DNA of 64,000 nt. It comes from a virus (lineage: Duplodnaviria > Heunggongvirae > Uroviricota > Caudoviricetes). Positions 27,016 through 50,296 of this stretch are shown piece after piece. The stretch's first letter is position 1; every line of letters begins with the position of its first letter. The position numbers and the translations under genes were made by a program. The DNA is taken from the IMG/VR virus record IMGVR_UViG_2939127364_000001; one strand, written 5' to 3'. The notes below the pieces were generated by a model. It worked only from the letters and a program-made list of their open reading frames with translations, did no database searches and was not told the DNA's origin.

Positions 27016-27102
27016 TGGCGGAGAGTAATGGAATCGAACCATCATCGTTTGCACAATGGGACGGATTTCAAGACCGCTTGAGCACCATGCTCCCTACTCT
27101 CC
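27016..27102 (-). tRNA. tRNA-Ser (anticodon UGA), type II with long variable arm
   Basis: Minus strand GGAGAGTAGGGAGCATGGTGCTCAAGCGGTCTTGAAATCCGT...GGTTCGATTCCATTACTCTCCGCCA; anticodon loop CTTGAAA; one mismatch in anticodon stem. Confidence 0.6.
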
Positions 27103-27202
27103 AGCTATTGTGATGGTCGGTGCTGAACTCCGACACAGGGTTGTAGCAAGCCCCGCAAAGCGCGCACTACTGTAGTTGCGGCACATCAGCCTGTGCATTC
27201 AT

Positions 27203-27281
27203 CACAACGGTAAGATCACTACCTTTCGACCAGTCATTGTGCACATGAACGACGATTAACCGTAATGATCTTATCGTTGTG
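27203..27281. repeat. Hairpin element E1 (15-bp arms CACAACGGTAAGATC / GATCTTATCGTTGTG, one mismatch)
   Basis: Arms at 27203-27217 and 27267-27281. Confidence 0.55.
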
Positions 27282-27332
27282 TTGTGAAGCCAGATGCTTA
27301 TCTTCTGGTTGCTTCAAAGAGCTGCACTTCCT

Positions 27333-27421
27333 CACAACGGTAAGAGCACTGGTCTGACTCTATCGATTTACGGGCTTGTGGGTCAGTATCGCCGATTCGC
27401 CCAATGCTCTTACCTGTTGTG
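27333..27421. repeat. Hairpin element E2 (arms CACAACGGTAAGAGC / GCTCTTACCTGTTGTG) abutting tRNA-Thr 3' end
   Basis: Arms at 27333-27347 and 27406-27421; paralogous to E1. Confidence 0.55.
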
Positions 27422-27422
27422 T

Positions 27423-27498
27423 TGGTGCCGGTTAACGGGATCGAACCGCTGACATCCTGCTTACAAGGCAGGCGCTCTACCAACTGAGCTAAACCGGC
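27423..27498 (-). tRNA. tRNA-Thr (anticodon UGU)
   Basis: Minus strand GCCGGTTTAGCTCAGTTGGTAGAGCGCCTGCCTTGTAAGCAGGATGTCAGCGGTTCGATCCCGTTAACCGGCACCA; canonical cloverleaf, encoded CCA. Confidence 0.8.
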
Positions 27499-27502
27499 AA
27501 TT

Positions 27503-27589
27503 TGGTGGGGAGTGATGGAGTCGAACCACCCGAGTCGCAATGACAGTAGATTTACAGTCTACCCCGCTGCCCCTACGGACTAACTCCCC
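27503..27589 (-). tRNA. tRNA-Tyr (anticodon GUA), type II
   Basis: Minus strand GGGGAGTTAGTCC...GGGTAGACTGTAAATCTACTG...GGTTCGACTCCATCACTCCCCACCA; anticodon loop CTGTAAA. Confidence 0.65.
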
Positions 27590-27594
27590 TAAAT

Positions 27595-27669
27595 TGGCGA
27601 TGGTGGGTGGATTCGAACCACCGACCAGTTGGTTAACAGCCAACTGCTCTACCGCTGAGCTACACCATC
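27595..27669 (-). tRNA. tRNA-Asn (anticodon GUU)
   Basis: Minus strand GATGGTGTAGCTCAGCGGTAGAGCAGTTGGCTGTTAACCAACTGGTCGGTGGTTCGAATCCACCCACCATCGCCA. Confidence 0.75.
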
Positions 27670-37920: not shown

Positions 37921-38442
37921 GTGAGCAATACAACGATAGAGATTTTCTCTGGAGAGAAAGATTATGATCTAAACGGTTTTGATTGCGGCGAAGAGTCACT
38001 AAACGCCTTTTTAGCCAACCACTTAAAAAGGCAGCATGAGGGAAAAATTCTTCGTGCTTATGTGCTTTGCACTCAAGAAGAAAGGCCAAAAGTGTTAGGA
38101 TATTACACTTTGTCAGGTAGTTGTTTTGAAAAGGAGTCCTTACCTTCAAGAAGCAAACAAAAGAAGGTTCCTTATCGGAATGTTCCAAGTGTTACTTTGG
38201 GTAGGCTGGCTTTGGACAAGTCCCTTCAAGGTCAAGGATTTGGCTCAATGCTTGTAACACATGCAATGCGCGTTGTGTACAATGCATCTCTTGCTGTAGG
38301 CATTCATGGACTTTTCGTTGAGGCGTTAAATGACAAAGCCAAGGCGTTTTATAAAAGTTTAGACTTTATCCAGCTGGTTGGTAACAACGAGCGTTCTTTG
38401 TTCTATCCTACAAAATCTATCGAAAAATTGTTCGAAGAATAA
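37921..38442 (+). CDS. GNAT acetyltransferase toxin (TacT/AtaT-like)
   Basis: 173 aa, GTG start 8 nt after antitoxin stop; GNAT motif LQGQGFGSMLV; antitoxin-toxin order typical. Confidence 0.7.
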   Translation: MSNTTIEIFSGEKDYDLNGFDCGEESLNAFLANHLKRQHEGKILRAYVLCTQEERPKVLGYYTLSGSCFEKESLPSRSKQKKVPYRNVPSVTLGRLALDKSLQGQGFGSMLVTHAMRVVYNASLAVGIHGLFVEALNDKAKAFYKSLDFIQLVGNNERSLFYPTKSIEKLFEE

Positions 38443-38474
38443 TGTGTTCCCCTCATTTGAGGGGAACTTCGACA

Positions 38475-38660
38475 TCACCAACCACAAACCCTCTCTCCCA
38501 TCGTATTGTGAAAAAGGATTTGGCGTTCGGTTTCTTCAGTCATTACATCATTATTGCTGATATAGATAGGCTCAGCCCCATCGCAGAACAACACGCTGGT
38601 GGTTTGTGGTTTAATGACGCACCCACTTATCATACAACTCACGATGAACGGCAGAAGCAT
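38475..38660 (-). CDS. Rz1-like o-spanin lipoprotein candidate
   Basis: Frame overlapping 3' end of Rz-like gene; MLLPFIVSCMISGC with lipobox ISGC. Confidence 0.4.
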   Translation of the reverse strand: MLLPFIVSCMISGCVIKPQTTSVLFCDGAEPIYISNNDVMTEETERQILFHNTMGERVCGW

Positions 38661-38862
38661 CTTTCTGACGTATTTTACTGCTCGTCTCATTCACCACTTT
38701 CACTGTGTTTTGAAGTCGTTTTCTGTCTTCCTGTTTTGCCTTCTCTTCCATTGCTCGTCGCGCCGCATTCCCGCCCATCGTGTAAGCGCCGACAAAAACG
38801 AAAAGAACGGCAGCCAGCGTAATCAAAGCAACTTTTAGCTTTGTCATCAGGCTGCCTAGCAT
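38611..38862 (-). CDS. Rz-like i-spanin
   Basis: 83 aa; N-terminal transmembrane helix then charged coiled-coil region; follows endolysin-like gene. Confidence 0.5.
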   Translation of the reverse strand: MLGSLMTKLKVALITLAAVLFVFVGAYTMGGNAARRAMEEKAKQEDRKRLQNTVKVVNETSSKIRQKDASAVHRELYDKWVRH

Positions 38863-38863
38863 A

Positions 38864-39583
38864 TTAGACCATCCCTTTCTGGTGTCTTCTTACCTGCGAC
38901 CAGGCAATGAATCCGGCCACAACAATAGTGGCAATGCCGAAGATGATGCGTACTGTATCCCCGCTAGAGATATGACCTTGTGCCTTATCCATAGCAGCGG
39001 AAACCTGCGGCATAACATCGGCCAGCTGCGCCAGACCAATACCTGCTGTAACAGTTGCGCCTGCGGTTTCTTTAGTTACAGGAACAGCCTTCACGGTTTT
39101 CACCGGCTTAACAACGCCAGCTCGACGCAGACCTTCCTCAATAACTTCTGCCGCATACCAGGTGTTCAGCGTTTTTAGCGGGCCTCGGCCATTCTCGTGG
39201 CGAATGATTGCCTCAACCAAAGGTCGAAGGATGTCGTAATCATGCAGATCGATGATCATGTCTGCGGTTACACCAACGGCTTTAGACACCTCATTAATGT
39301 AGGCGTCAGTATTGTTTTCATTCGGCGGTGCCCAGCGTTCAATAACTTCACGAATGGTATCGATACTTGTGCCGTCTTTTGCGCGACGTTTATCGTGGTA
39401 GGTAATTAGAGTCACCGCCAGCGCACGAATCCCCCAAACAGGGTCTTTAAACGTGCAAAAGCGCGGTTCGTCTGGATTCGCAACCAGACCTTGCCACGGT
39501 GATCCTTTATCAAGATTACCGGGGTTATTATTACGAATGCCTCTCGGGGTCTTCATCCTTGATCTCCTGTTATTGCAGTCCAC
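38864..39583 (-). CDS. Putative endolysin / lysis protein with C-terminal hydrophobic segment
   Basis: 239 aa; position between holin-like and spanin genes; C-terminal IIFGIATIVVAGFIAW; enzymatic family not determinable by eye. Confidence 0.35.
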   Translation of the reverse strand: MDCNNRRSRMKTPRGIRNNNPGNLDKGSPWQGLVANPDEPRFCTFKDPVWGIRALAVTLITYHDKRRAKDGTSIDTIREVIERWAPPNENNTDAYINEVSKAVGVTADMIIDLHDYDILRPLVEAIIRHENGRGPLKTLNTWYAAEVIEEGLRRAGVVKPVKTVKAVPVTKETAGATVTAGIGLAQLADVMPQVSAAMDKAQGHISSGDTVRIIFGIATIVVAGFIAWSQVRRHQKGMV

Positions 39584-39905
39584 TTTTTACGCCATACGCG
39601 GCTAACCCCAAAAGCAGTGCGGTAATAATGAACGACGTTATTTTAGAAACAATGCCGCCAAAGAACCCACTTGAGATGGAATCTAACCGGTTAAGGAGTT
39701 TGTCCAGATTGGAGTGTTGAATACTATGTTGCGCCGGGGTCATATCACCAAAGTAGGTTTTCAGCTGATCATTGACCTCCTGGCCAATTTCTTCACGTAG
39801 CTCTTTACCTAATTTGCCAACAACCTCCCGAGCAACGATCGCGGCAATACGCTCAACTTGCTCTGTTGTAACGCCCGCCATCTCGTTCGACATGTTTTCC
39901 TCCAT
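39570..39905 (-). CDS. Putative holin
   Basis: 111 aa; C-terminal transmembrane segment ITSFIITALLLGLAAYGV; first gene of lysis cassette. Confidence 0.35.
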   Translation of the reverse strand: MEENMSNEMAGVTTEQVERIAAIVAREVVGKLGKELREEIGQEVNDQLKTYFGDMTPAQHSIQHSNLDKLLNRLDSISSGFFGGIVSKITSFIITALLLGLAAYGVKSGLQ

Positions 39906-39967
39906 GAAAAGTCAAATCGGGATGGCGGTTTTATATCATAAAACGCCCACACTTGGTAGGTAAGTAC

Positions 39968-40756
39968 TTACACATGAGCGCCGTAAATTGCCCCAGCTTT
40001 AGTCCATGTAGGCGCGTTGCCAGTTACGGCTTTACCAGCTGCCCCGCCGCCGTACATTGTCCCCAATCGTCCAGTAGCAGCAGCACCAGCGGCACCTACA
40101 TTACCTCCACTGCCGCATGTGTATTGAACAGCGGTAGAGCCGATCAAATATTGAGCACCAATCCCGGGAGCGGTTAGAGTGCCAGAAGTTGCCGCACGCG
40201 AAGTTGAAGCTGGCGGCCTTGTAGTGTTTGCAACACCAAACGGGCGACCGCCACCACCCATACCACCATCGGCTGAGTTACCGCCGCCACCACCGCCACC
40301 ACCGGCAATAGCGCCGTTATTGGTTATTCTTAAACGAGTCCCAATCCCGTTGTTAATAGCAGTGCCACCGGCAGCACCGCCACCTTTAACGCCACCATTA
40401 CCGCCACGGCCATAGACAGTTACACCTGCGTTGATTACAAGGCTGATATAAGAGTTGGTAAGTGAACTCGGGAAATCTAAACATGGCACGCCGCTACTGG
40501 ACGACACCAGATCCCCTGTAATGGTAACAACGACTGGCGTCGCCCCCTGGGATTTTAAATAGTTGATCAGTGTGTCTTTGTTGTAGTTATGATTCGCACC
40601 GATGCTGTACTGAACTTCTTTAGATCGCCCGGCCATTTGAGACATTGAACCAGCCGCTGGCAGTTGCACCGCCGTTCGAGCCGCACTCATCCATCTCTGG
40701 CCTGTCACACTGACAGCCGAAGACCCAATCCAACCGGGAACACCGACAATTGGCAC
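39968..40756 (-). CDS. gp38-like tail fiber adhesin with glycine-rich motifs
   Basis: GTG start at 40756 preceded by AAAGGAG; N-terminus PIVGVPGWIGSSAVSVTGQRWMS and GRSKEV...TGDLVSSS...GRGGNGG...NNGAIAGGGGGGGG resemble recalled T2-type gp38; directly downstream of long tail fiber. Confidence 0.6.
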   Translation of the reverse strand: MPIVGVPGWIGSSAVSVTGQRWMSAARTAVQLPAAGSMSQMAGRSKEVQYSIGANHNYNKDTLINYLKSQGATPVVVTITGDLVSSSSGVPCLDFPSSLTNSYISLVINAGVTVYGRGGNGGVKGGGAAGGTAINNGIGTRLRITNNGAIAGGGGGGGGNSADGGMGGGGRPFGVANTTRPPASTSRAATSGTLTAPGIGAQYLIGSTAVQYTCGSGGNVGAAGAAATGRLGTMYGGGAAGKAVTGNAPTWTKAGAIYGAHV

Positions 40757-40822
40757 ATCTAATCTCCTTTTTGATGTGAATATCCTGAATTGGTGAGGGT
40801 GGCCCCTCACCATTCACCTTGA

Positions 40823-43800
40823 TTACATTTTTGCCTTCAGTTCGCGCACTTCCTCGCGCAGCTCTTTGACAGCCTCGACCAACATGCCGATAACGCCGTT
40901 GTAGTTAAGACGCAGACGAGGCTCTCCTGACTGATCGTTATGGTCAACCGTTACCAGTTCAGGCTGAACATTCTGGACGTCCTGAGCGATGAGGCCGCCA
41001 GACTGCTCATAACGGCCACAGACCTGAATCTCGTAGAGAACACCTTCGATCTGCTCCAGCTTGTCGAGCGCCCGCTCAATTTTGCGAATATTGCGCTTAC
41101 TACGGCGGTCGGAACGGATGTAAACGTCGTTAAAGCTACCATTCCCACCACAAACCCAAGTGCCGTCATTTTGCAAATAAGCATTAGCATCAGTGCCATT
41201 ATCAGTACGTGAGTTGTTTATCATGTAAAAGCCGAATTGGCTGTTACCTAAACCACCAACAAAAAATTTCCTATCAGCATGGTCTTGTCTTAACAATGCC
41301 TGAGCAGAACTAGTTGATACCTGATTAAGACCAAAAATAACGTTTTGATCTCGCATGCTAATCCAAGAACCTGAGTTGCTGTTAATAGAAAACCTGTTTG
41401 CATATACCCAGGAATTGGTTTTTATATCTCCAGTAACGTTGACAGGCTTATTGCTTTGAACACTCCCACTCGTAAAGCGTAAAACTTGGGTGTTATTGGC
41501 GTAAACATCAAGAATGCCATCTCCATTTTGTTTTAATCCGGTATCGCTATCACCCAGAACAATTGAGTTCCCACCAAGACCATTGACCACACCCAGCCCA
41601 AGACCACCGTCAACAACAGCACCATTGCCCATTGCTACTCTGCCATTAGTGAGATTTACATAAAATGGACGAAGCGAACCTATATCACCATTTTCTCCCT
41701 GGTCTTTTGCTGTCGGGATAAGGTAAAAATTATTTTCGGAACGGCGAAAAATCATCCCGTATGCCGCATCGTAAATGCGCAACCCATCCGTAGAGCGGAT
41801 CTTAAGCTGTCCGGACATCGTACCGCCGCTGTTTTTCATAAATAGCGCATCAATCCAGCCTGCAAATCCCGACTTATTAATGTATAAATTTCCATCATTT
41901 GCCAGAATGCCTCCACCTTGCGTCTTGAGGGGCTGACTCACATTTTGCAGCGTCAGCACACCAGTCATTGTTCCGCCAGAAATCGGTAACGCACCGACAT
42001 CAGCCGCTGTGGGTTTATGAGCAGTGGTATAGACCTGCGCCCAACCAGACCAATTCGCTGTCGAAGTATCACGGCGTGAACGAACATAAACCGGTGCATG
42101 AGCACCATTCGTTCCGCTCCAGCCAATAAGCAACTCGCCCTCACCAGCAGCACTCGCACCTTTCATGTGCAATACGTTGCCATACGTGGTCGGGTAGCTA
42201 TTGTTGTACGCCTCATACATTTGAATGCCAGCAGTGCCTTGAGTAGAGCCACTTAACGCCGTTACGGGCCCGCGTGATACCAATGTATTAATGTTGATAT
42301 CGCCTGAGCCATCAAACTTAACACCATTGATGTTTCTAGCAGTTTGCAACTTCGTAGCTGTTGAAGCATTACCGTTCAAGCTACCATTGATGCCGCCAGT
42401 AACATTGAGTCCATTACCAATGGACACAGCACCGCTGGTATTATTAATTGTAATCGGTCGCAAACCGTTCCATGAACCTAATGTGTCTCCTGATGCTGTT
42501 AGCATGAAATATGTGTTCGACCCATCATTACGGATAAAGAACCCAAAGCTACCGTAAGCAATGCGGAAACCATTTGCATATTTTGAAATGATCTCGCCAG
42601 AAGATGTCAAACCTCCAGATAATGTCCCACCGGTAAGAGGTAATGCACCAACGTCAGATGCTGTTGGTTTATTTTTCGTGTTATATACTCTTCGCCATCC
42701 TGGAGAATAATCTGTGCCATTAAATACATAGATAAACTCCGCATTAGTGAGAGCACCAGAGACACTCGTCGTTGTGGCCGTTGTTATACGGATCGTATAA
42801 TTGTTTGAGCTACTACCGTTATTAAATACCTCTATAACAGCTCCTGCCAATGGAATAACGCCACAACCAGTTTCACTATTTGGTATGGTTGCACTATTGG
42901 CATAGGCCCACGCACATCGAGCAATCCATGACCTTGTGGTAAACGCGCCGTTATTTTGCAATAACGTCACTAACTGTGCTGTTGTTATTGCTCCGCCATT
43001 ACTTCCTGTAGTTAACCAACCAGTAGGAGATGCCGGGCAACCTATATCGGCAGGCCCCAACGATATATTTCTTGTGCCATCAAACGCAATACCGTTGATG
43101 GTTCTTGCGGTTTGCAACTTCGTAGCAGTAGCCGCGTTGCCCGTTGTATTCTGATTACCAGTCGTATTAACACCTGGCAAATTAATATTCGCAGTACCAT
43201 CAAAGCTCACGCCGCCGATAGTTCTTGCCGTCTGAAGTTTTGTAGCAGTTGCAGCATTACCAGTGGTGTTCTGATTACCCGTAGTATTTACACCTGGAAG
43301 GTTGATATTTGCAGAACCGTCGAAACCAACTCCACCGATAGATCTTGCCGTCTGCAATTTCGTTGCTGTACTTGCATTACCATTTAATGTTCCGGTGATC
43401 CCACCAGTAACAGACAACGGACCTGAAACTGTTCCTCCGGTTGTTGGCAGTGCTCCAATATCTAACGGCGTCGGTTTCTGATGTGTGCTATACATCGTAT
43501 AAACAACACCATCGGTAACGCTGGAAGGCTTACTCGCTGAATATGTTGGCGATGTATAAATAGAAACTGTCGCATTTGCAGTACAATCCCAATGGATATT
43601 TACACGAGTCGCATAATTGCCAATCTCAACGTAAATATCATATGTATCGCCGGATGTGTTGATCCAGGCGAAATTCGTTAATCCGACAGCTGTACGCTTC
43701 CACAAAGCACCTGTAATCCCTTTGGGGTTTCCATTGCCTGCTCGTAGAACCAGTTCTGAAATACCTGCCTGATGTGGGGAGCCAACGTTAAACCCTGCGC

Positions 43801-45469
43801 CACCAATCAGGCTTATGTAAACCACGGAACTGGCTTGTGGCATGGTTACAGTTGCCAGCTTGAACCATCCGGCACCACCACTAAAAGACATTGTTATTGA
43901 ATTTAAAGTACCAATATCTTTCGGCGTTAATGTGATATCCGCAGTCAGTGCTTTACCGTTAACTTTTCGGTTAGATGGTACCCTGCCATTCGCATTGTCA
44001 TTGGCTGCTTTAACTGCCTTCGGTGTCGCGGCAAGCGTTTCAGATGTGCTGTTGGTTGCACTACTGAGCTGGACTATCCCCTTTTTCGTCGTGCTCGCAT
44101 CCTCAAGCGCCACGGCGGATGCAATATCCTCTGCCCGTTTTGCCGCTGTCTCAGCGCGCGTTGCTGCGGATTCTGCCGTACTTTTGCTCTGTGCTGCCGC
44201 CGTCGCACTGCCAGCAGCCTCTGTTGCCTTCGTGGATGCCGTCGTGGCGCTGCCCTTCGCTGCTGACGCCTGTCTGGTCGCCTCATCTTTTGAAGCAGAC
44301 GCAGATGATGCCGATGACGCTGCCGAACTGGCGGACGATGCCGCTGCCGTTTTTGAGGATTCTGCACGGGTTTCCGACGCTTTCGCGTTCGTTTCGGATG
44401 TCTTCGCTGCGGAAGCTGACCTCGCTGCTGCGCTGGCCTGTTCAGTGGCTTGGCCAGCCTTCGTTGTGGCTGTTGAAGCAGACGATGCGGCACTTTCTGC
44501 CGATTTTCCGGCGGCGGTGGCACTGGCTGAGGCCTGCCCGGCACTTGTTGACGCGGCACTGGCAGACGACGCAGCCGCTGTTTTTGAGCCTGCCGCAGCC
44601 GAGGCGCTCTGTCCCGCTGCCGTTTCAGAAGACCTGGCGTTCGTCTCGGACGTTTTTGCCGCCTTCGCGGAATTTCCTGCCGCCGTTGCCGAGGAAGCGG
44701 CATTACTGGCGCTCGAGGCTGCGCTCGTTTCTGATGATTTCGCTGCCTCTTTTGAGGCCGCCGCATCCCGGGCTGAGGTGGCAGCTTCTGACGCCTTCGT
44801 GGTCGCGGTGGATGCAGAAGTGGCTGCAGATTTTTGTGACGCTGCAGCATTCGTTTCAGATTTTTTCGCAGCAGTTGCACTCGCACTTGCGGCACTTTGT
44901 GAGGATGCCGCAGCGGATGCACTTTGAGACGCTTGAGAGGCTTTTTCTCCAGCAGTATTGGCGCTTTCTGCTGCTGCGGCAGCACTGGCCGCCGCCTCAC
45001 GAGCTTTGTCGCCAGCAGCATCAATCGCGTCAGTGTTATTTTTATACCACTCAACGTTTTCGTTGTGCTCGTTGACGATCTGCATTAGCGGCTTAACGGT
45101 CACTTCTGTACCGTCTTCACGCTCGATTGTCACCTCATCCAGCGCAGTCAACCAACTGCGTATGGACTTGGAATCAGCCGACATACGCGACATTAGCGCA
45201 GTAAAGCGCGCGCTAAACTGTGTTAAGTCGCCTTCATAGGTCGTAATGATTCGGCACGGAACCTCAGACTGAGTTTCGCCGGTATAAGGTTCTGAGAGAA
45301 CAATATTCGTATCGCTTATTACGCGCTTGATCTCGTACAGCTTATTGTCGGGGCCAATGACGATCATCCCCGGCAACACACCATTAGCTGTTACGTTCCA
45401 GGCTGTCCCTGCCCCAACCAGAGTATTGCTACCCTGTGTAAATGTGATAGTACCTTCCCTGTACCACAT
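40823..45469 (-). CDS. Long side tail fiber protein
   Basis: 1548 aa; Ala/Ser/Thr-rich low-complexity region, tandem tail-fibre repeats (ATATKLQTARTIGGVSFDG), C-terminal SDRRSKRNI segment resembling S74 intramolecular chaperone domain. Confidence 0.85.
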   Translation of the reverse strand: MWYREGTITFTQGSNTLVGAGTAWNVTANGVLPGMIVIGPDNKLYEIKRVISDTNIVLSEPYTGETQSEVPCRIITTYEGDLTQFSARFTALMSRMSADSKSIRSWLTALDEVTIEREDGTEVTVKPLMQIVNEHNENVEWYKNNTDAIDAAGDKAREAAASAAAAAESANTAGEKASQASQSASAAASSQSAASASATAAKKSETNAAASQKSAATSASTATTKASEAATSARDAAASKEAAKSSETSAASSASNAASSATAAGNSAKAAKTSETNARSSETAAGQSASAAAGSKTAAASSASAASTSAGQASASATAAGKSAESAASSASTATTKAGQATEQASAAARSASAAKTSETNAKASETRAESSKTAAASSASSAASSASSASASKDEATRQASAAKGSATTASTKATEAAGSATAAAQSKSTAESAATRAETAAKRAEDIASAVALEDASTTKKGIVQLSSATNSTSETLAATPKAVKAANDNANGRVPSNRKVNGKALTADITLTPKDIGTLNSITMSFSGGAGWFKLATVTMPQASSVVYISLIGGAGFNVGSPHQAGISELVLRAGNGNPKGITGALWKRTAVGLTNFAWINTSGDTYDIYVEIGNYATRVNIHWDCTANATVSIYTSPTYSASKPSSVTDGVVYTMYSTHQKPTPLDIGALPTTGGTVSGPLSVTGGITGTLNGNASTATKLQTARSIGGVGFDGSANINLPGVNTTGNQNTTGNAATATKLQTARTIGGVSFDGTANINLPGVNTTGNQNTTGNAATATKLQTARTINGIAFDGTRNISLGPADIGCPASPTGWLTTGSNGGAITTAQLVTLLQNNGAFTTRSWIARCAWAYANSATIPNSETGCGVIPLAGAVIEVFNNGSSSNNYTIRITTATTTSVSGALTNAEFIYVFNGTDYSPGWRRVYNTKNKPTASDVGALPLTGGTLSGGLTSSGEIISKYANGFRIAYGSFGFFIRNDGSNTYFMLTASGDTLGSWNGLRPITINNTSGAVSIGNGLNVTGGINGSLNGNASTATKLQTARNINGVKFDGSGDININTLVSRGPVTALSGSTQGTAGIQMYEAYNNSYPTTYGNVLHMKGASAAGEGELLIGWSGTNGAHAPVYVRSRRDTSTANWSGWAQVYTTAHKPTAADVGALPISGGTMTGVLTLQNVSQPLKTQGGGILANDGNLYINKSGFAGWIDALFMKNSGGTMSGQLKIRSTDGLRIYDAAYGMIFRRSENNFYLIPTAKDQGENGDIGSLRPFYVNLTNGRVAMGNGAVVDGGLGLGVVNGLGGNSIVLGDSDTGLKQNGDGILDVYANNTQVLRFTSGSVQSNKPVNVTGDIKTNSWVYANRFSINSNSGSWISMRDQNVIFGLNQVSTSSAQALLRQDHADRKFFVGGLGNSQFGFYMINNSRTDNGTDANAYLQNDGTWVCGGNGSFNDVYIRSDRRSKRNIRKIERALDKLEQIEGVLYEIQVCGRYEQSGGLIAQDVQNVQPELVTVDHNDQSGEPRLRLNYNGVIGMLVEAVKELREEVRELKAKM

Positions 45470-45562
45470 GTTGAATATGCTCCTTGATTTGGCGGGTTAT
45501 CCTTGCCCGCCATTAAGTAAATGCTTACCTATTTTTACCGATATAAAAATTTTTTTCCACCA

Positions 45563-48500
45563 TCACAGACGGCCAATTCTTACTCGTAAGACGTTGTTAT
45601 CGTCATAAACGTCAATCCGCTGACCATTTATAACCAATCGCCCATTGCCGCCGCTATTACCGTTGATCTCAAGCGTTCCATTTTTGCCGAACCGCCATCC
45701 AGATCTACCGCTAACAAAATTGGTAGATTGCAGATCGCCTACTTTTGCATTGGTGATTGTGCCATCCTTGATATACGCTCCATTCATATAGGCGATACTG
45801 TTTTCGATAACAAATGGCGTTGTGATCTTCCCGTTAACAGAGTTGACCAAACCAAACCTGTCCGCCTGAACCAAAAACTGAGATAGCCCAGTGGTGTCAA
45901 TACCAAGCGCAATACCGGCAACATACTTCTGACCTCCGCTCGTTGAAGTCTCCATTTTCAACGTCCACGCGGTTGACACTTTTTTGTTGGTATCAGCAAT
46001 AGCTGTTGCCTGCTGTTGAATTGTCGCGGTATTTCCATCCACCTCTGCTTTCAGAGTATCGATTCGCCCACTCAGAGCATTATCTGCCTGCGTTCTCGCT
46101 GTCGTTTCAGTTGTTACCGCCGCGGAAATGTTGGCTGCCGTTTGAGACTCTAAGTTTGTGATTTGAGTCGCCAATGCAGCATCTTGGTCTGTACGCGTTT
46201 TCGTTTCGGTTGCTACAGCCGCTTTAATATCCTCTTTGTATTGAGAGGTCAGCTTGGTGATCTGAGACGACAACGCCGAGTCAGCATCAGTTCGAGCCTG
46301 CGTTTCAACTGCAACGGCCGCACTAATATCTTTCGCTGTCTGTGCTTTTAAATTTGAAACCTCTTTTGTTAAAGCGGTATCACCATCTGCACGAGCCGTT
46401 GTTTCTCTGGCAAGAGACGCCTCGAGATCATTAGCTTTTGCTGTAAGAGACGTAATCTGGGTAGACAATGCACTATCGGCATCAGTCCTTGCTTTTGTCT
46501 CTACAGCAACCGCTGCGGCAATATCAGTTCCGGTTTGTGCTCGCAGGCTGTTAATTTCTCGTGAGAGCGCCTGGTCAGCACTTGCTCTGGCCTCCTGCTC
46601 CTGAGTGATGGCAGCGGATATATCACCGTCAACCTTTGACTGAAGCTGGTTTATTTGTTTGGCTAACGCAGAGTCCCCGCTTGCTCGGGCCTCCTGCTCA
46701 CTACGTATTGCAGCAGAAATATCATCATCAACCTTTGCCTGAAGTTGGGTGATCTGGCTTGCCAGAGCCGAATCTTCCGTTGCTCGGGCTTCTTGCTCTT
46801 CCTTAATAGCTGCGACGATATCGTTGCTTACTTTCGACTCAAGCTGAGTGATCTGTGTCGTCAGAGCTTCATCGGCAGATGTACGAGCCTCCTGCTCTGT
46901 ACTAATCGCCGCGCTGATATCTCCTTCAAACTTAGATTGCAGCTGAGTGACACGCTTTGCCAACGCTTCATCGCCATCGGCACGAGCGGTGGACTCTTCC
47001 AGAATACTGGCCTTAATGTCTTCGCCAATTTCTACGCGAATTTCCTCAACCTTCGTGGCCATTGCAGACATATCATCAGCAAAGGTTTTCTGTGTTGTTG
47101 CGATCTTCGCGTTATTGACCATCTGCTTGTGCTGGTCTTCATCTTGACGAAGAGCCAGGTCAATATTTGTTTTGGCTAACGCCTCAATGTTCGTAGTCAG
47201 TTCTGCACTTGCACGATCGACCTCTGCAACCGTCTTTTTCATTTCTTCAACGGCAGCGGAGCTTTCCTCTACCGTTGACTGCAACACTTCCAGTTGTTTA
47301 GCGTTTGCAGCATCGCCTTCAACACGAGCCTCGCTTTCCTTAGCAATAAGAGCCGCCGCTTCATCTCTTGCAGCCTTTATTGCCTCGACTGTATTAGCGA
47401 GAGCTTTATCGTGTTCAGATACGGTGTTTTCGATTTCAACAATTGCAGCATCAGTAGCATCAATTTTTTCAAACGCTTCATTGACCTTGTCGATCGTTGC
47501 CGAAACCTCACCTTTAAGCTCGGTTTGTGCGTTCTCCAAAGCATCGCTACGCTCGTTGAATTTTATTTCAAAATCCGCGAGGTTATCGCTGAACTGCTTA
47601 TCTAATTCAGCTATATCTTCCTTAACGTCGTTTACCGCCCCCTCCAAAGATTCGACGCTCTGGTTGATATGCTCATTTAACTCGTCAACTGCTTCTTGAG
47701 AGGCTTTGCTGTTGATGTCCTCAAGCAGAGCCTGACCAAGCTCGGAAGATGTAATTTTGCCAGTCAGGAACGACAGTACATCGCGAGTTGTCGCCTCTGT
47801 ACCCAAGTTTGAGTTCGGAGGACTTAACATACCTCGCTTGTTCGATGCTCGAACCCAGTAATACCACGTTTCACTATCCCCAAGACCAGCATGTGTAAAG
47901 GTGGTGCTTGCAGACTCTGCGATCAGTTTCGCCGTATCCAGATTGTTGGTCTGGGATGCGTAAACATTAATGTGATCAAGGTCTACCGAATCTGGATTAA
48001 CCCAATTCAGTATCACATTACGATAGTCTCCAACGGCCGTTAATGACGTTGGTGCATCCGGCGGTGTCATTGTGCCCAGCACCTGATAAACGGTACTGAT
48101 AATTTCTGTTTTTTTACCGTTGAATGAAACCGCATACAGTTGGAAGTCGTAGCGTCCATTCTCCGCGACATTAACAATTTCGTATTGCTCTTCGGTTACA
48201 CGCGCCGATTGCCAGTTCGATATATTGTTTTCATCAGAACGTCGCCAACTGATCCAATACTCTGGAGATTTCCCTTCCCATGTTGCAGTCAGTTTTACTG
48301 ACAGGTTGCCAGGGCTTGAGAGATAAGTCCCTTCGGTGATTTGCAAATTAGACGGCTTGGAGTAAGTCGGGTCCAATACCGTCGTATTCTGCGGGATAAG
48401 CGTTGCACCATTGTCGATCGCCTCATATTTAGACGGATTGTTCTCAACAGCGGTGATGTCAAAGCTACCCGGCGTTTCCCCCTGCGCGATGTTAACGATG

Positions 48501-50296
48501 CGAACGCGCATAGGTTCGAGATCTGGTTCTGTAATTGTCCAGACACCGTTCAAAACAGGCGTTTCCGCTGACGACAGGGCTTTTGAAAACGTAACTTTTG
48601 TTATATTTTCGCCAGTTTCAAGAACATCGCGTTCAACGATTTTGCCTTCCTGATTCAGTATTCGAATAAAGCAGCCGCCTTTGGCTAACGACACAGGCGC
48701 ATCGAGTGTGACGCTGTTTTTGGTAAACGCCACAATTCGACCTGAGTTACGTTTGCCTGCGCGATATTTGTTCTGAATCAGAACGGTTTCACCAGGCATC
48801 AGAAATGACGCGTCTAAGCCAGCAGTAAATGTAATTACATCCGACTCCATTCTGGCGGTATATAAAAGCCACAAACCAACTCGGTGAGCCTGCCCTCGGC
48901 TTGTACAGCCAAATGCTACGACTTCTGTTTTACGCTCACCATAACGGCGCATTGCGTCCTGATCTTCGACGTACTCGATGTTTTGCTTATAACCGTCCTC
49001 CTTGTTGTTGTAGGTTACGAGCGCAACGGATGGGCGATCTTTACGCGCAGAACCTTTATAGGTAAACAATCCATCTTTGACGTTAGAGTTGGTAAACATC
49101 ATTACCGGATCTGATGGGCTATCCTGCATGATGTTGACCATCCCACCAGCCCAAAACACCATGCCGCGGAATGCTCCGGCAATATCCTGAATTAGCCGGT
49201 ATGCGTCCTGTCGACTGGTGATCTGCGTATTGATTGCAAAGCGTTTCTCTTTGCCACCAAAGCCATCATCGACCTCTTCGTCACAATATCGACCAATCTG
49301 GTACAACTGGCCAAGGTCAATCATAGATTCCGACACATACTGACCAAGGCCATATCGAGCATTGGTCAGCAAATCAAAGAGAATCCACGCGGGGTTCGAA
49401 GAAGACAACAGCTTAAAAGTGCCATCCCATACCCCAGCGTAAGTGTTACTGGACTCGTTATAGTTTGAAGGTACTCGAATTTTTAGGCCACGCACCAGAT
49501 AAGAGCGAGATGGCATGGTGCTGCCGAATTGCTCAGAGTTTACCTTCAATCCAACCAAAACAGAGTTTGGATAGTTCATCGGTGTATCGACAATTTCCCC
49601 GATTGAATCCACCCATGTATCGTTATAGAGATACTGGCTACTGTTATCATCGGTAATACGGACCACACGAACCTTGTATGCGCGTCCAGGCTTAGGCAGC
49701 TTCAGCTCGTAGCTACGGTAATAAACGCCGGTCTTCTTTGCTGTTAGCTTAATGCCAACGCTTTTTTCACCTTCCGCGACCACATCTACAAATGTTGAGT
49801 CGCCATTTGCTATCTGGAACTTGTACTCAACAGTCGTACCGTTCGTGTCACCAGTTTTTTTATCTATGCTTCGCAAAGAAGGAAACTTCATGATGACACG
49901 AACCCGATCAGCTTCATCGTTATCGATTGAAACCGTTACATAATGTGTTTTTTTTAACTGGATATTGACGGATTTAGGCGTTTCAACGAAATCAAAGCCA
50001 GACATTGGAGTCTGGTCTTGTGAACCGTCGCGAAAATCCCATGTGATTCCGCTGAAGTTGGAGGAACCGTCTTCATTTACAATCGGCAGATCGTCGATAA
50101 AAATAGATCTTGCGCCATTTACTAAGCCGCCAATTACCCCTTCCCCAAGAAGATCGAGGATAGCGGCCATTGCACGAGAATTTACGGTATCGTCGGCTTC
50201 AACCGGTGTACGGCTGGAGCTTTTGCTGCTTTTTTTACCACCCGCACCGGCAATAAACAGCGGTAGCTTTTTCTTCTTGAACTGTTCCATGTTCAA
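45563..50296 (-). CDS. Tail tip central fiber protein (lambda J-like)
   Basis: 1577 aa; N-terminal two-thirds alignable by eye to lambda J (e.g. YAGVWDGTFK, FGCTSRGQAHRVGLWLL); C-terminal part replaced by repeat-rich coiled coil. Confidence 0.85.
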   Translation of the reverse strand: MNMEQFKKKKLPLFIAGAGGKKSSKSSSRTPVEADDTVNSRAMAAILDLLGEGVIGGLVNGARSIFIDDLPIVNEDGSSNFSGITWDFRDGSQDQTPMSGFDFVETPKSVNIQLKKTHYVTVSIDNDEADRVRVIMKFPSLRSIDKKTGDTNGTTVEYKFQIANGDSTFVDVVAEGEKSVGIKLTAKKTGVYYRSYELKLPKPGRAYKVRVVRITDDNSSQYLYNDTWVDSIGEIVDTPMNYPNSVLVGLKVNSEQFGSTMPSRSYLVRGLKIRVPSNYNESSNTYAGVWDGTFKLLSSSNPAWILFDLLTNARYGLGQYVSESMIDLGQLYQIGRYCDEEVDDGFGGKEKRFAINTQITSRQDAYRLIQDIAGAFRGMVFWAGGMVNIMQDSPSDPVMMFTNSNVKDGLFTYKGSARKDRPSVALVTYNNKEDGYKQNIEYVEDQDAMRRYGERKTEVVAFGCTSRGQAHRVGLWLLYTARMESDVITFTAGLDASFLMPGETVLIQNKYRAGKRNSGRIVAFTKNSVTLDAPVSLAKGGCFIRILNQEGKIVERDVLETGENITKVTFSKALSSAETPVLNGVWTITEPDLEPMRVRIVNIAQGETPGSFDITAVENNPSKYEAIDNGATLIPQNTTVLDPTYSKPSNLQITEGTYLSSPGNLSVKLTATWEGKSPEYWISWRRSDENNISNWQSARVTEEQYEIVNVAENGRYDFQLYAVSFNGKKTEIISTVYQVLGTMTPPDAPTSLTAVGDYRNVILNWVNPDSVDLDHINVYASQTNNLDTAKLIAESASTTFTHAGLGDSETWYYWVRASNKRGMLSPPNSNLGTEATTRDVLSFLTGKITSSELGQALLEDINSKASQEAVDELNEHINQSVESLEGAVNDVKEDIAELDKQFSDNLADFEIKFNERSDALENAQTELKGEVSATIDKVNEAFEKIDATDAAIVEIENTVSEHDKALANTVEAIKAARDEAAALIAKESEARVEGDAANAKQLEVLQSTVEESSAAVEEMKKTVAEVDRASAELTTNIEALAKTNIDLALRQDEDQHKQMVNNAKIATTQKTFADDMSAMATKVEEIRVEIGEDIKASILEESTARADGDEALAKRVTQLQSKFEGDISAAISTEQEARTSADEALTTQITQLESKVSNDIVAAIKEEQEARATEDSALASQITQLQAKVDDDISAAIRSEQEARASGDSALAKQINQLQSKVDGDISAAITQEQEARASADQALSREINSLRAQTGTDIAAAVAVETKARTDADSALSTQITSLTAKANDLEASLARETTARADGDTALTKEVSNLKAQTAKDISAAVAVETQARTDADSALSSQITKLTSQYKEDIKAAVATETKTRTDQDAALATQITNLESQTAANISAAVTTETTARTQADNALSGRIDTLKAEVDGNTATIQQQATAIADTNKKVSTAWTLKMETSTSGGQKYVAGIALGIDTTGLSQFLVQADRFGLVNSVNGKITTPFVIENSIAYMNGAYIKDGTITNAKVGDLQSTNFVSGRSGWRFGKNGTLEINGNSGGNGRLVINGQRIDVYDDNNVLRVRIGRL
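46040..47030 (-). repeat. Tandem 99-bp (33-aa) coding repeats, ~9-10 units, inside J-like gene
   Basis: Repeated unit DISAAI-EQEARAS-D-ALA-QI-QLQSKV; DNA periodicity visible in 46040-47030. Confidence 0.7.

What the first reader, a model, noticed from the sequence alone, without database searches (positions are those of the whole stretch)
40823..45469. Modular long tail fiber: low-complexity Ala/Ser/Thr spacer, tandem fibre repeats and C-terminal chaperone-like domain
The 1548-aa fiber combines a ~350-aa Ala/Ser/Thr-rich low-complexity stretch (about 44000-45050), repeated tail-fibre units (about 42300-43400) and a C-terminal SDRRSKRNI segment resembling the self-cleaving S74 intramolecular chaperone. 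Having both that domain and a separate gp38-like adhesin is an unusual combination.
Basis: partly seen in the sequence, partly recalled or inferred. Interest (0 to 1): 0.45.

Follow-up and report, generated by a model that had tools for sequence, protein, structure and literature searches.

The report
Phage-plasmid tail fibre with T2-type tip
This is an ordinary, intact side tail fibre gene of an SSU5-like phage-plasmid. Its self-cleaving C-terminal chaperone and the separate gp38 adhesin next door are the normal working pair known from phages T2 and S16, not an odd combination.

Summary
Window 40823-45469 (-) is one intact 1548-aa ORF with three features. It has an Ala/Ser/Thr-rich stretch (aa 145-460). 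It has three tandem 40-aa fibre repeats plus a fourth dispersed copy. Its C-terminus scores above threshold for Peptidase_S74 (aa 1453-1507, 43.2 bits against a cut-off of 22, E 5e-11), with the Ser1453/Lys1458 pair intact.

Two parts of the interpretation need correcting.

First, the "low-complexity spacer" is a strict heptad array. It has 43 in-phase heptads A-x-x-S-A-x-x (aa 152-452). In the 42 heptads that were tabulated, Ala fills position a in 42 of 42. The stretch is predicted all-helical, so it is most likely the proximal coiled-coil rod known from lambda Stf.

Second, S74 plus gp38 is the rule, not an unusual pairing. T2 gp37, fPS-90 gp37 and SSU5 gp021 all carry S74 and are followed by a gp38-type adhesin, and all share VYIR^SDxRxK. 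In IMG/VR, 77 of 79 loci with a Gp38_N adhesin have a complete chaperone-ended fibre gene upstream. In phage S16, published work shows that chaperone cleavage exposes the gp38 docking face.

A sister plasmid has the same first 1148 aa but a different C-terminus, with neither S74 nor gp38. The tip is therefore an exchangeable host-range cassette.

Verdict: a new member of a known kind, of low interest.

The parts
40823..45469 (-). Side tail fibre gene, 1548 aa (158.8 kDa precursor)
   Evidence: Intact ORF. PHROG tail-fibre families match with E = 0. It is syntenic with SSU5_021, lying between the J-like central fibre gene and the adhesin and lysis genes.
45017..45469 (-). N-terminal region, aa 1-151; presumed tail-attachment domain
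   Evidence: aa 1-942 are 44% identical to SSU5_021 aa 1-777. The region is conserved at 95.6% in the sister plasmid L005. The attachment role is inferred from position only.
44114..45016 (-). 43 in-phase heptads A-x-x-S-A-x-x, aa 152-452; predicted alpha-helical coiled-coil rod of about 44 nm
   Evidence: Lag-7 autocorrelation. Over the 42 heptads tabulated, Ala is at position a in 42/42, Ser at d in 33/42 and Ala at e in 29/42. Shuffle test and the extension to 43 heptads. AF2 predicts helix throughout, mean pLDDT 78.9. DNA is 90-93% identical to the side tail fibre genes of lambdoid phages. Lambda Stf residues 102-393 are described as a proximal coiled coil (PMC12617516).
43970..44107 (-). 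Conserved neck motif, aa 455-500 (TTKKGIVQLSSATNSTSETLAATPKAVKAANDNANGRV)
   Evidence: Aligns to Mu tail fibre protein S residues 91-156 (5YVQ_A).
43046..43402 (-). Three tandem 40-aa fibre repeats, aa about 690-808 (NGNA(S/A)TATKLQTAR.I.G..FDG...I)
   Evidence: TRF finds period 120 nt, 2.4 copies, at 43097-43382. Motif positions. Each copy matches fPS-90 gp37 aa 55-101.
42290..42412 (-). Fourth, dispersed copy of the 40-aa repeat, aa about 1020-1060
   Evidence: the repeat finder family D1, copy at 42297-42416, 63% identity. blastp match to fPS-90 gp37 aa 57-101.
42446..42751 (-). T4 gp34-like trimerisation domain, aa 907-1008
   Evidence: Pfam PF21446 Gp34_trimer, E 1.2e-30. PDB 4UXE and 5NXF (T4 gp34) match aa 945-1175.
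40826..42025 (-). Exchangeable C-terminal cassette, aa 1149-1548, starting after the WAQVYT..KPT..DVGALP linker
   Evidence: The sister plasmid fibre (L005) is 95.6% identical over aa 1-1148, then unrelated, and has no S74. Many plasmids match only nt 1-3447 of the gene.
41135..41401 (-). Mu S-like distal domain, aa 1357-1445, carrying the tip
   Evidence: 5YVQ_A residues 341-445 match, with i-Evalue 2.7e-34 for that stretch and E 1.2e-30.
41114..41128 (-). DVYIR strand, aa 1448-1452: predicted last residues of the mature fibre and the gp38 docking face
   Evidence: VYIRSD is invariant in T2, fPS-90, SSU5 and the window. PMC7917993 predicts cleavage after DVYIR and gp38 docking there.
40826..41113 (-). 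S74 intramolecular chaperone, aa 1453-1548 (96 aa, 11.1 kDa); Ser1453 nucleophile, Lys1458
   Evidence: Pfam PF13884. 6F45_A, E 6.9e-14. A profile search also reaches the MyRF ICA domain 7DC3, E 3e-6. The Ser/Lys +5 spacing is as in T5 pb1 Ser1264/Lys1269 (PMC4690869).
39968..40756 (-). gp38-type receptor-binding adhesin, 262 aa; real start is GTG 40756, not the ATG at 40813
   Evidence: An AAGGAG sequence lies 7 nt before the GTG. PF21721 then aligns from residue 1, and PF05268 gives E 6.6e-70. 6F45_D, E 3e-43. W9 and W22 are invariant.

Best explanation
This is the side (lateral) tail fibre of an SSU5/pHCM2-type siphovirus phage-plasmid, built as a mosaic trimer.

The N-terminal ~150 aa anchor it to the tail (inferred). 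Next, 43 uninterrupted heptads (A-x-x-S-A-x-x) form a coiled-coil rod of about 44 nm, like the proximal rod of lambda Stf (sequence pattern and helix prediction shown; trimeric state inferred). A beta-structured shaft follows. It is made of T4 gp34/gp37-like and Mu S-like domains and 40-aa repeats, joined by KPTxxD(I/V)GALP linkers.

The last 96 aa are an S74 intramolecular chaperone. After it has helped the trimeric tip to fold, Ser1453 (activated by Lys1458) cuts the R1452-S1453 bond and an 11-kDa fragment leaves (inferred from homology). This exposes a flat tip made of three DVYIR strands. One copy of the 262-aa gp38 adhesin encoded just downstream docks onto that tip through its N-terminal domain (Trp9, Trp22). 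Its glycine-rich C-terminal domain then presents variable loops to the bacterial receptor.

The chaperone and the adhesin are thus successive steps of one assembly pathway, as in T2 and S16. The whole tip (aa 1149-1548 plus gp38) is a swappable host-range cassette.
For: Profile hits above Pfam thresholds for S74, Gp34_trimer, GP38 and Gp38_N.

Sequence homology to both partners of the solved S16 complex. 6F45_A (gp37, present as 3 chains) gives E 6.9e-14. 6F45_D (gp38, present as 1 chain) gives E 3.2e-43.

Invariant V-Y-I-R-S-D-x-R-x-K across T2, fPS-90, SSU5 and the window.

Literature statement of the S16 mechanism and of DVYIR^SD cleavage (PMC7917993). Ser/Lys catalytic geometry in T5 pb1 (PMC4690869).

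77 of 79 IMG/VR Gp38_N loci have a full IMC-ended fibre upstream. 53 are adjacent and 24 have one small gene between.

Within the same plasmid lineage, the allele without S74 also lacks gp38.

Heptad statistics and helix prediction. Homology of the rod DNA to lambdoid stf genes and the published Stf coiled coil.

Synteny with phage SSU5 and pCPF6-IncFIB.
Against: Nothing was measured on protein: cleavage, trimerisation, gp38 docking and the receptor are all inferred.

The single-sequence AF2 model of aa 1354-1548 was unusable (pLDDT 42), so the chaperone fold was not confirmed structurally.

The residues upstream of the cleavage site that sense correct folding (the Arg/Asp of T5 pb1) could not be mapped.

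The domain just before DVYIR is Mu S-like rather than T2/S16-like, so the docking geometry could differ.

The IMG/VR loci are partly redundant, so 77/79 overstates the number of independent cases.
Confidence: 0.85

Rival explanations
1. The S74 segment is a decayed remnant that no longer cleaves. The fibre stays full length, and gp38 acts only as an assembly chaperone (as T4 gp38 does) or is unused.
For: No protein data exist. The S74 score (43.2 bits) is lower than T2's (56.5 bits). The structure model was uninformative.
Against: Ser1453, Asp1454, Arg1456 and Lys1458 are invariant with T2, fPS-90 and SSU5. The chaperone aligns end to end with S16 gp37. The neighbour belongs to the adhesin family PF05268/PF21721, with both docking tryptophans.
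Confidence: 0.05
2. The combination is truly unusual. Two independent solutions, a self-chaperoning fibre and a separate adhesin, were brought together by chance recombination and are redundant.
For: The fibre is a mosaic, and its tip cassette has been exchanged within the plasmid lineage.
Against: The same pairing occurs in T2, fPS-90, SSU5 and 77 of 79 IMG/VR loci. The published S16 mechanism makes the two parts interdependent. In the sister plasmid both are absent together.
Confidence: 0.03
3. The Ala/Ser/Thr region is a disordered, flexible low-complexity linker rather than a folded rod.
For: A+S+T content is 65-80%. Small residues at core positions would give a weakly packed coiled coil. 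PDB matches to coiled-coil shafts are only marginal (E 0.1-0.2).
Against: There are 43 consecutive heptads with no phase shift, and Ala fills position a in 42/42 tabulated, against a maximum of 29 in 20,000 shuffles. There is no DNA-level tandem repeat there, so the period is held at protein level. AF2 predicts continuous helix, pLDDT about 80-90 over most blocks. Lambda Stf has a proximal coiled coil at the equivalent place.
Confidence: 0.07
4. The gene is a dead relic in a defective plasmid-prophage and makes no functional fibre.
For: In the closest plasmid (pCPF6-IncFIB) the distributed gene table lists only a 402-nt C-terminal CDS over this region. That table omits pseudogenes.
Against: Here the 4.6-kb frame is open end to end, with intact neighbours: J, gp38 and the lysis genes. 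The heptad and catalytic motifs are perfectly kept.
Confidence: 0.05

Closest known systems
Salmonella phage S16 gp37-gp38 long tail fibre tip (PDB 6F45), with T2 gp37/gp38 and Yersinia phages fPS-2/-65/-90
   Same: A C-terminal S74 chaperone is cleaved before Ser of SDxRxK. The (D/N)VYIR or equivalent strand forms the tip. A single gp38 has an N-terminal Trp-prong docking domain and a polyglycine-rich receptor domain. The adhesin gene lies directly downstream.
   Different: Those are virulent T-even myoviruses, whose distal half-fibre joins gp34-36. Here the module ends a single 1548-aa side fibre of a temperate siphovirus phage-plasmid. A Mu S-like domain (aa 1357-1445) sits between the T2-like shaft segment and DVYIR. 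The chaperone is 36-42% identical and gp38 44-62% identical to T-even proteins.
Salmonella phage SSU5 gp021 (tail fibre) and gp022 (annotated receptor-recognising adhesin)
   Same: Same genome type and gene order. The fibre C-terminus (aa 1143-1548) is 65% identical overall, and the last ~150 aa are 94% identical. An S74 hit is present, and a Gp38_N adhesin lies downstream.
   Different: The SSU5 fibre is 1260 aa. Its adhesin is 178 aa with only the Gp38_N docking domain and an unrelated C-terminal part, with no PF05268 polyglycine domain.
Ur-lambda side tail fibre Stf and lambdoid side tail fibres (mEp460, phi458, PhiR series)
   Same: The Ala/Ser heptad rod shares 90-93% DNA identity over nt 525-1478 of the gene. 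It corresponds to the proximal coiled-coil domain described for lambda Stf.
   Different: By general knowledge, lambda Stf ends in a T4 gp37-like tip that is assembled with a separate Tfa chaperone. It has no S74 chaperone and no gp38 adhesin.
T5 pb1 L-shaped fibre and K1F endosialidase C-terminal intramolecular chaperones
   Same: Same S74 family and the same Ser...Lys(+5) catalytic pair. The chaperone is released after trimer folding.
   Different: In those proteins the mature C-terminal domain itself binds or cleaves the receptor, and no separate adhesin docks on the new end.

Membership tests
Peptidase_S74 / C-terminal intramolecular chaperone (IMC) | Pfam PF13884 match above the gathering score | tested here: met
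   43.2 bits against a cut-off of 22, E 5e-11, aa 1453-1507, profile positions 1-58 of 58.
Peptidase_S74 / C-terminal intramolecular chaperone (IMC) | Catalytic Ser at the start of the domain, with Lys five residues later | tested here: met
   S1453-D-R-R-S-K1458. S, D, R and K are invariant in T2, fPS-90 and SSU5. Spacing is as in T5 pb1 Ser1264/Lys1269.
Peptidase_S74 / C-terminal intramolecular chaperone (IMC) | Lies at the extreme C-terminus of a fibre or spike protein | tested here: met
   It forms the last 96 of 1548 residues.
Peptidase_S74 / C-terminal intramolecular chaperone (IMC) | Homology to a structurally solved IMC | tested here: met
   6F45_A (S16 gp37), E 6.9e-14 over aa 1421-1547. 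The profile of A1 also hits the MyRF ICA domain 7DC3, E 3e-6, and 8JOV, E 2.6e-8.
Peptidase_S74 / C-terminal intramolecular chaperone (IMC) | IMC three-dimensional fold | tested here: inconclusive
   The single-sequence AF2 model of aa 1354-1548 had mean pLDDT 42 and was not usable for fold search.
Peptidase_S74 / C-terminal intramolecular chaperone (IMC) | Autoproteolytic release after trimerisation | not testable with these tools
   Needs protein expression or virion mass spectrometry.
gp38 adhesin, T2/S16 type | PF21721 (N-terminal docking domain) and PF05268 (receptor domain) above threshold | tested here: met
   PF21721: 54.7 bits against a cut-off of 25. PF05268: 235.8 bits against a cut-off of 25.
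gp38 adhesin, T2/S16 type | Conserved N-terminal tryptophans that insert into the fibre tip | tested here: met
   W9 and W22 are invariant with T2, fPS-90 and SSU5. Their role is stated in PMC7917993.
gp38 adhesin, T2/S16 type | Polyglycine-rich motifs framing variable loops | tested here: met
   Aligns to 6F45_D across aa 8-260, including the GRGGNGG, GGGGGGGG, GGGGRPFG, GSGGNVG and GGGAAG runs.
gp38 adhesin, T2/S16 type | Encoded downstream of a fibre gene ending in an IMC | tested here: met
   There are 66 nt between the fibre stop codon and the gp38 GTG start. The same arrangement is seen in 77 of 79 IMG/VR loci.
gp38 adhesin, T2/S16 type | Physical binding to the fibre tip, and receptor recognition | not testable with these tools
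   Needs pull-down, cryo-EM and adsorption assays.
Lambda Stf-type proximal coiled-coil rod | Continuous heptad periodicity and alpha-helical prediction | tested here: met
   43 in-phase heptads. AF2 predicts helix at residues 2-350 of 351, pLDDT 78.9.
Lambda Stf-type proximal coiled-coil rod | Homology to lambdoid stf genes | tested here: met
   90-93% DNA identity over nt 525-1478 of the gene to annotated side tail fibre genes of more than 20 lambdoid phages.
Lambda Stf-type proximal coiled-coil rod | Parallel trimeric assembly | not testable with these tools
   No multimer prediction was available.
   Not listed among the hits at E <= 0.1. The 40-aa repeats instead match gp37 N-terminal repeats of fPS-90.
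Mu G / P1 C-type invertible fibre segment | Long inverted repeats flanking alternative fibre ends, and an invertase gene | tested here: not met
   Only short inverted repeats (17-23 nt, 74-82% complementary) were found in 38000-46500. None of the neighbouring genes scanned was an invertase.

The most novel reading that the evidence does not exclude
The three-part T2-type tip (DVYIR strand, S74 chaperone and Gp38_N-docked adhesin) may be a portable cassette. On this reading it circulates between virulent T-even myoviruses, temperate SSU5-type phage-plasmids and contigs of about 35 kb, with the Gp38_N domain serving as a universal plug for unrelated receptor domains. The gp38 here is 95-97% identical to those of Enterobacter hormaechei and Citrobacter freundii phage-plasmids. 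This allele could therefore give these plasmids, which can carry resistance genes, a cross-genus host range. No paper in the searchable library discusses this for SSU5-like elements.
Probability: 0.4. Interest if true: 0.35.

Novelty: new member of a known kind. Interest (0 to 1): 0.15.

Why it matters
It matters modestly. It gives a correct functional reading of a gene that public records label only 'tail fiber domain-containing protein' or 'phage tail protein'. It fixes the likely start of the adhesin gene. It also shows where the host-range cassette of SSU5-type phage-plasmids begins (aa ~1149). That is useful for predicting or engineering the host range of elements that move between Enterobacteriaceae and sometimes carry resistance genes. 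No new mechanism is involved.

Tried and rejected
- Single-sequence AlphaFold2 of aa 1354-1548 gave pLDDT 42. No fold search was run on it. A deep alignment would have needed a large homologue search, which I judged unnecessary given the Pfam and PDB sequence evidence.
- NCBIfam gave no hit for the fibre, gp38 or the lysis genes.
- Pfam Phage_fiber_2 was not matched.
- I looked for a Mu/P1-style invertible segment and found no credible inverted repeats.
- I checked whether the element's own tRNAs (Ser-TGA, Thr-TGT) relate to codon use in the Ser/Thr-rich rod. Ser codons are spread over all six codons (TCA 24%), with no clear bias. The script stopped before the comparison sets were printed, and I did not pursue it.
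- The PDB search with the rod alone gave only marginal matches to the T7 gp17 and T5-like LtfA shafts (E 0.1-0.2).
- My first parse of the IMG/VR upstream hits mixed sequence-level and domain-level scores. I redid it.
- One literature search failed on a two-character term.

Full report
**What is there.** Window 40823-45469 on the minus strand is a single open frame of 1548 codons. PHROG tail-fibre families match it with E = 0. The gene sits between a 1577-aa lambda-J-like central fibre gene (45563-50296; Pfam Phage_Tail_Tip, Phage-tail_3 and FNIII-A_GpJ) and an adhesin gene followed by lysis genes. Phage SSU5 has the same gene order, and so does the E. coli plasmid pCPF6-IncFIB, whose fibre gene is 96.3% identical in DNA. 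The window therefore comes from an SSU5/pHCM2-type phage-plasmid. The fibre gene matches 563 plasmid records, mostly non-mobilizable and, among the records listed, about 100-120 kb long.

A+S+T content is 65-80% from about aa 145 to 460, which is nt 44090-45037. A 120-nt unit is repeated 2.4 times at 43097-43382, and a third, diverged DNA copy lies at 42297-42416. At protein level the ATKLQTAR core occurs at aa 702, 742, 782 and 1038. SDRRSKRNI is at aa 1453-1461. Pfam Peptidase_S74 covers aa 1453-1507 with 43.2 bits against a gathering score of 22 (E 5e-11).

**The 'low-complexity spacer' is a heptad rod.**
- Residue identity at lag 7, and at every multiple of 7 up to 56, is 0.36-0.44. At other lags it is about 0.16-0.24.
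- Laid out in sevens, aa 159-452 has Ala at position a in 42/42 heptads, Ser at d in 33/42 and Ala at e in 29/42.
- The in-phase Ala run extends to 43 heptads, aa 152-452. In 20,000 shuffles of the same residues the best phase never exceeded 29 Ala (mean 20.9, sd 1.6).
- TRF finds no matching DNA repeat in this stretch. The period is therefore kept at protein level and is not a recent duplication.
- A single-sequence AlphaFold2 model of aa 130-480 is helical from end to end, with mean pLDDT 78.9.
- This DNA segment is 90-93% identical to annotated side tail fibre genes of many lambdoid phages. The recent Ur-lambda structure paper describes residues 102-393 of Stf as a proximal coiled-coil domain (PMC12617516).
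- At 0.148 nm per residue, 301 residues give a rod of about 44 nm. The trimeric state is inferred.

**The shaft is a mosaic.**
- aa 455-500 carry the GIVQLSSATNSTSETLAATPKAVK neck, which is shared with Mu protein S (5YVQ).
- aa 807-950 resemble the Mu S/S' chimera 8JU3.
- aa 945-1175 resemble T4 gp34 (4UXE, 5NXF; Pfam Gp34_trimer E 1e-30).
- aa 1213-1353 resemble two separate pieces of T2 gp37.
- aa 1357-1445 align closely with Mu S residues 341-445.
- Domains are joined by KPTxxD(I/V)GALP linkers at aa 665, 934 and 1152.

**The C-terminus is a true S74 intramolecular chaperone.** Besides the Pfam hit, aa 1421-1547 align with the solved S16 gp37 fragment (6F45_A, E 6.9e-14). A four-sequence profile also reaches the MyRF autocleavage domain (7DC3, E 3e-6). 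In an alignment with T2 gp37, fPS-90 gp37 and SSU5 gp021, V-Y-I-R-S-D-x-R-x-K is invariant. The Ser-to-Lys spacing of five matches Ser1264/Lys1269 of T5 pb1. In pb1 the serine is the scissile residue, the lysine activates it, and a Ser-to-Ala change blocks cleavage (PMC4690869). Predicted cleavage between R1452 and S1453 would leave a 147.7-kDa mature chain and release an 11.06-kDa fragment. The fold itself could not be confirmed, because the single-sequence model had pLDDT 42.

**The neighbour is a true gp38 adhesin, with a corrected start.** The mechanical ORF starts at ATG 40813. However, Gp38_N aligns only from residue 22 of that ORF. An AAGGAG sequence lies 7 nt before GTG 40756. Starting at that GTG gives a 262-aa protein beginning MPIVGVPGWIGSS, the same length as T2 gp38. 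Gp38_N then aligns from residue 1. The protein matches the S16 adhesin chain 6F45_D (E 3e-43) through all the polyglycine runs. It also keeps both docking tryptophans, W9 and W22.

**The combination is the rule.**
- Published mechanism. PMC7917993 states that in S16 the last 113 residues of gp37 form an IMC that is autocleaved after trimerisation. [quoted passage not shown] The S16 site is DLNVS^SDRRIKK. The paper predicts cleavage at DVYIR^SDGRLK in the fPS phages, with the DVYIR strands forming the tip that receives the gp38 tryptophans. The window protein reads DVYIR^SDRRSK.
- Named phages. Pfam finds S74 in T2 gp37, fPS-90 gp37 and SSU5 gp021. Each is followed by a protein with Gp38_N.
- Wider sample. 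I fetched 79 IMG/VR loci that encode a Gp38_N-bearing protein and searched upstream with an HMM of the chaperone. 53 have a complete chaperone ending no more than 101 nt before the adhesin. Another 24 have one about 770 nt upstream, with a single 156-aa lambda-tail-tube-like gene in between. Only 2 lack one. Of the 77, 76 show the S-D/E-x-R/K-x-K motif, and most are preceded by (D/N)VYIR. These loci are partly redundant, so the count is indicative rather than a measure of independent cases.
- Within this plasmid lineage. Plasmid pMB3825A_2 has a fibre 95.6% identical over aa 1-1148, then an unrelated 195-aa end without S74. No gp38 gene follows, and the lysis genes come directly after. The chaperone and the adhesin are thus present together or absent together. 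The cassette boundary lies at the WAQVYT/KPT linker, nt about 42025.

**How it most likely works.** The fibre trimerises and the C-terminal chaperone templates the tip. Ser1453 then cuts the chain and the chaperone leaves. One gp38 plugs into the three-fold DVYIR face; in 6F45 there are three gp37 chains to one gp38 chain. The glycine-rich domain of gp38 presents variable loops to the receptor. In the closest plasmid, whose fibre is 96% identical, gp38 aligns in only two pieces covering 53%. This fits loop replacement as the fine host-range switch. All biochemical steps are inferred from homology.

**Comparison and novelty.** The closest known systems are S16 and T2 gp37/gp38 for the tip, SSU5 gp021/gp022 for the whole locus, and lambda Stf for the rod. 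What differs is the context. This is one long side fibre of a temperate siphovirus phage-plasmid rather than the distal half-fibre of a T-even myovirus, and a Mu S-like knob is inserted before the docking strand. Database records already call the neighbour 'receptor-recognizing protein', and SSU5_022 is annotated as an adhesin. I found no paper in the searchable library that discusses gp38 in SSU5-like elements. Even so, the mechanism is known. This is a new member of a known kind.

**The most novel reading left open.** The tip cassette may move between virulent and temperate phages. gp38 matches 757 phage records, and the listed hits are nearly all from genomes of about 160-185 kb (T-even size). 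It matches 86 plasmid records. The allele is 95-97% identical in Enterobacter and Citrobacter phage-plasmids, which hints at cross-genus reach.

**Score.** Interest is 0.15. The finding is real and now well explained, but it is ordinary. Its one 'surprising' claim is the textbook arrangement for gp38-type adhesins.

Noticed in passing
window 27016-27669 (-): A cluster of four tRNA genes on the phage-plasmid: Ser(TGA), Thr(TGT), Tyr(GTA) and Asn(GTT). A quick look at Ser/Thr codon use in the fibre rod showed no obvious bias towards the cognate codons (incomplete).
   Followed up: partly
window 45563-50296 (-): The J-like central tail fibre is 1577 aa, against 1385 aa in SSU5. Its C-terminal half carries long, degenerate repeats of the type 'DISAAI..EQEAR.SAD.AL..QITQLQSKV'. 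One clear 99-nt (33-aa) tandem array lies at 46581-46798. It looks like an extended coiled-coil insert before the Phage_Tail_Tip domain.
   Followed up: partly
window 37921-38442 (+), and probably just upstream: A GNAT-family acetyltransferase (Pfam Acetyltransf_1/7). In the related plasmid pCPF6 it is paired with a DUF1778 protein. This is a likely toxin-antitoxin pair for plasmid maintenance, sitting right after the lysis genes. The antitoxin ORF in the window was not checked.
   Followed up: partly
window 43842-44927 (+), 44074-45054 (-), 44119-45075 (+): Three long ORFs (318-361 aa) lie in other frames or on the other strand inside the Ala/Ser heptad region. They are very probably artefacts of GC-rich, periodic GCN/TCN codons, not genes.
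   Followed up: no
window 40756 versus 40813: The longest-ORF start of the adhesin gene (ATG 40813) adds 19 residues not found in any gp38. GTG 40756, which has an AAGGAG sequence 7 nt upstream, is the likely real start.
   Followed up: yes
L037 281-3498 (and 23 similar IMG/VR loci, contigs mostly about 20-45 kb): A family of loci with three genes in a row. First comes a 669-aa fibre ending in DVYIR^SDSRLK plus the chaperone. Next comes a 156-aa protein with weak, below-threshold lambda tail-tube-like Pfam hits. Last comes a 168-aa adhesin with only the Gp38_N docking domain. The role of the intervening gene at this position is unexplained.
   Followed up: partly
window 39968-40756 compared with plasmid hits H172-H187: The gp38 here is 94-97% identical to those on phage-plasmids of Enterobacter hormaechei, E. 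cloacae complex and Citrobacter freundii. It is only 70-76% identical to several E. coli ones. The same adhesin allele is therefore shared across genera.
   Followed up: no
window 38611-39905 (-): A lysis block lies downstream of gp38. It has a 111-aa protein with a hydrophobic C-terminal stretch (phrog_5093; SSU5_026 at the equivalent position in SSU5 is annotated holin), a 239-aa endolysin-like protein (phrog_873) with a hydrophobic C-terminal segment, and an 83-aa ORF. No Pfam or NCBIfam family passed threshold for the endolysin.
   Followed up: no
window 41000-41750: GC content falls to 0.41-0.43 over the Mu S-like tip domain and the chaperone. It is 0.46-0.53 in most of the rest of the fibre and 0.59-0.62 in the rod. 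This is consistent with the tip cassette having a different origin.
   Followed up: no
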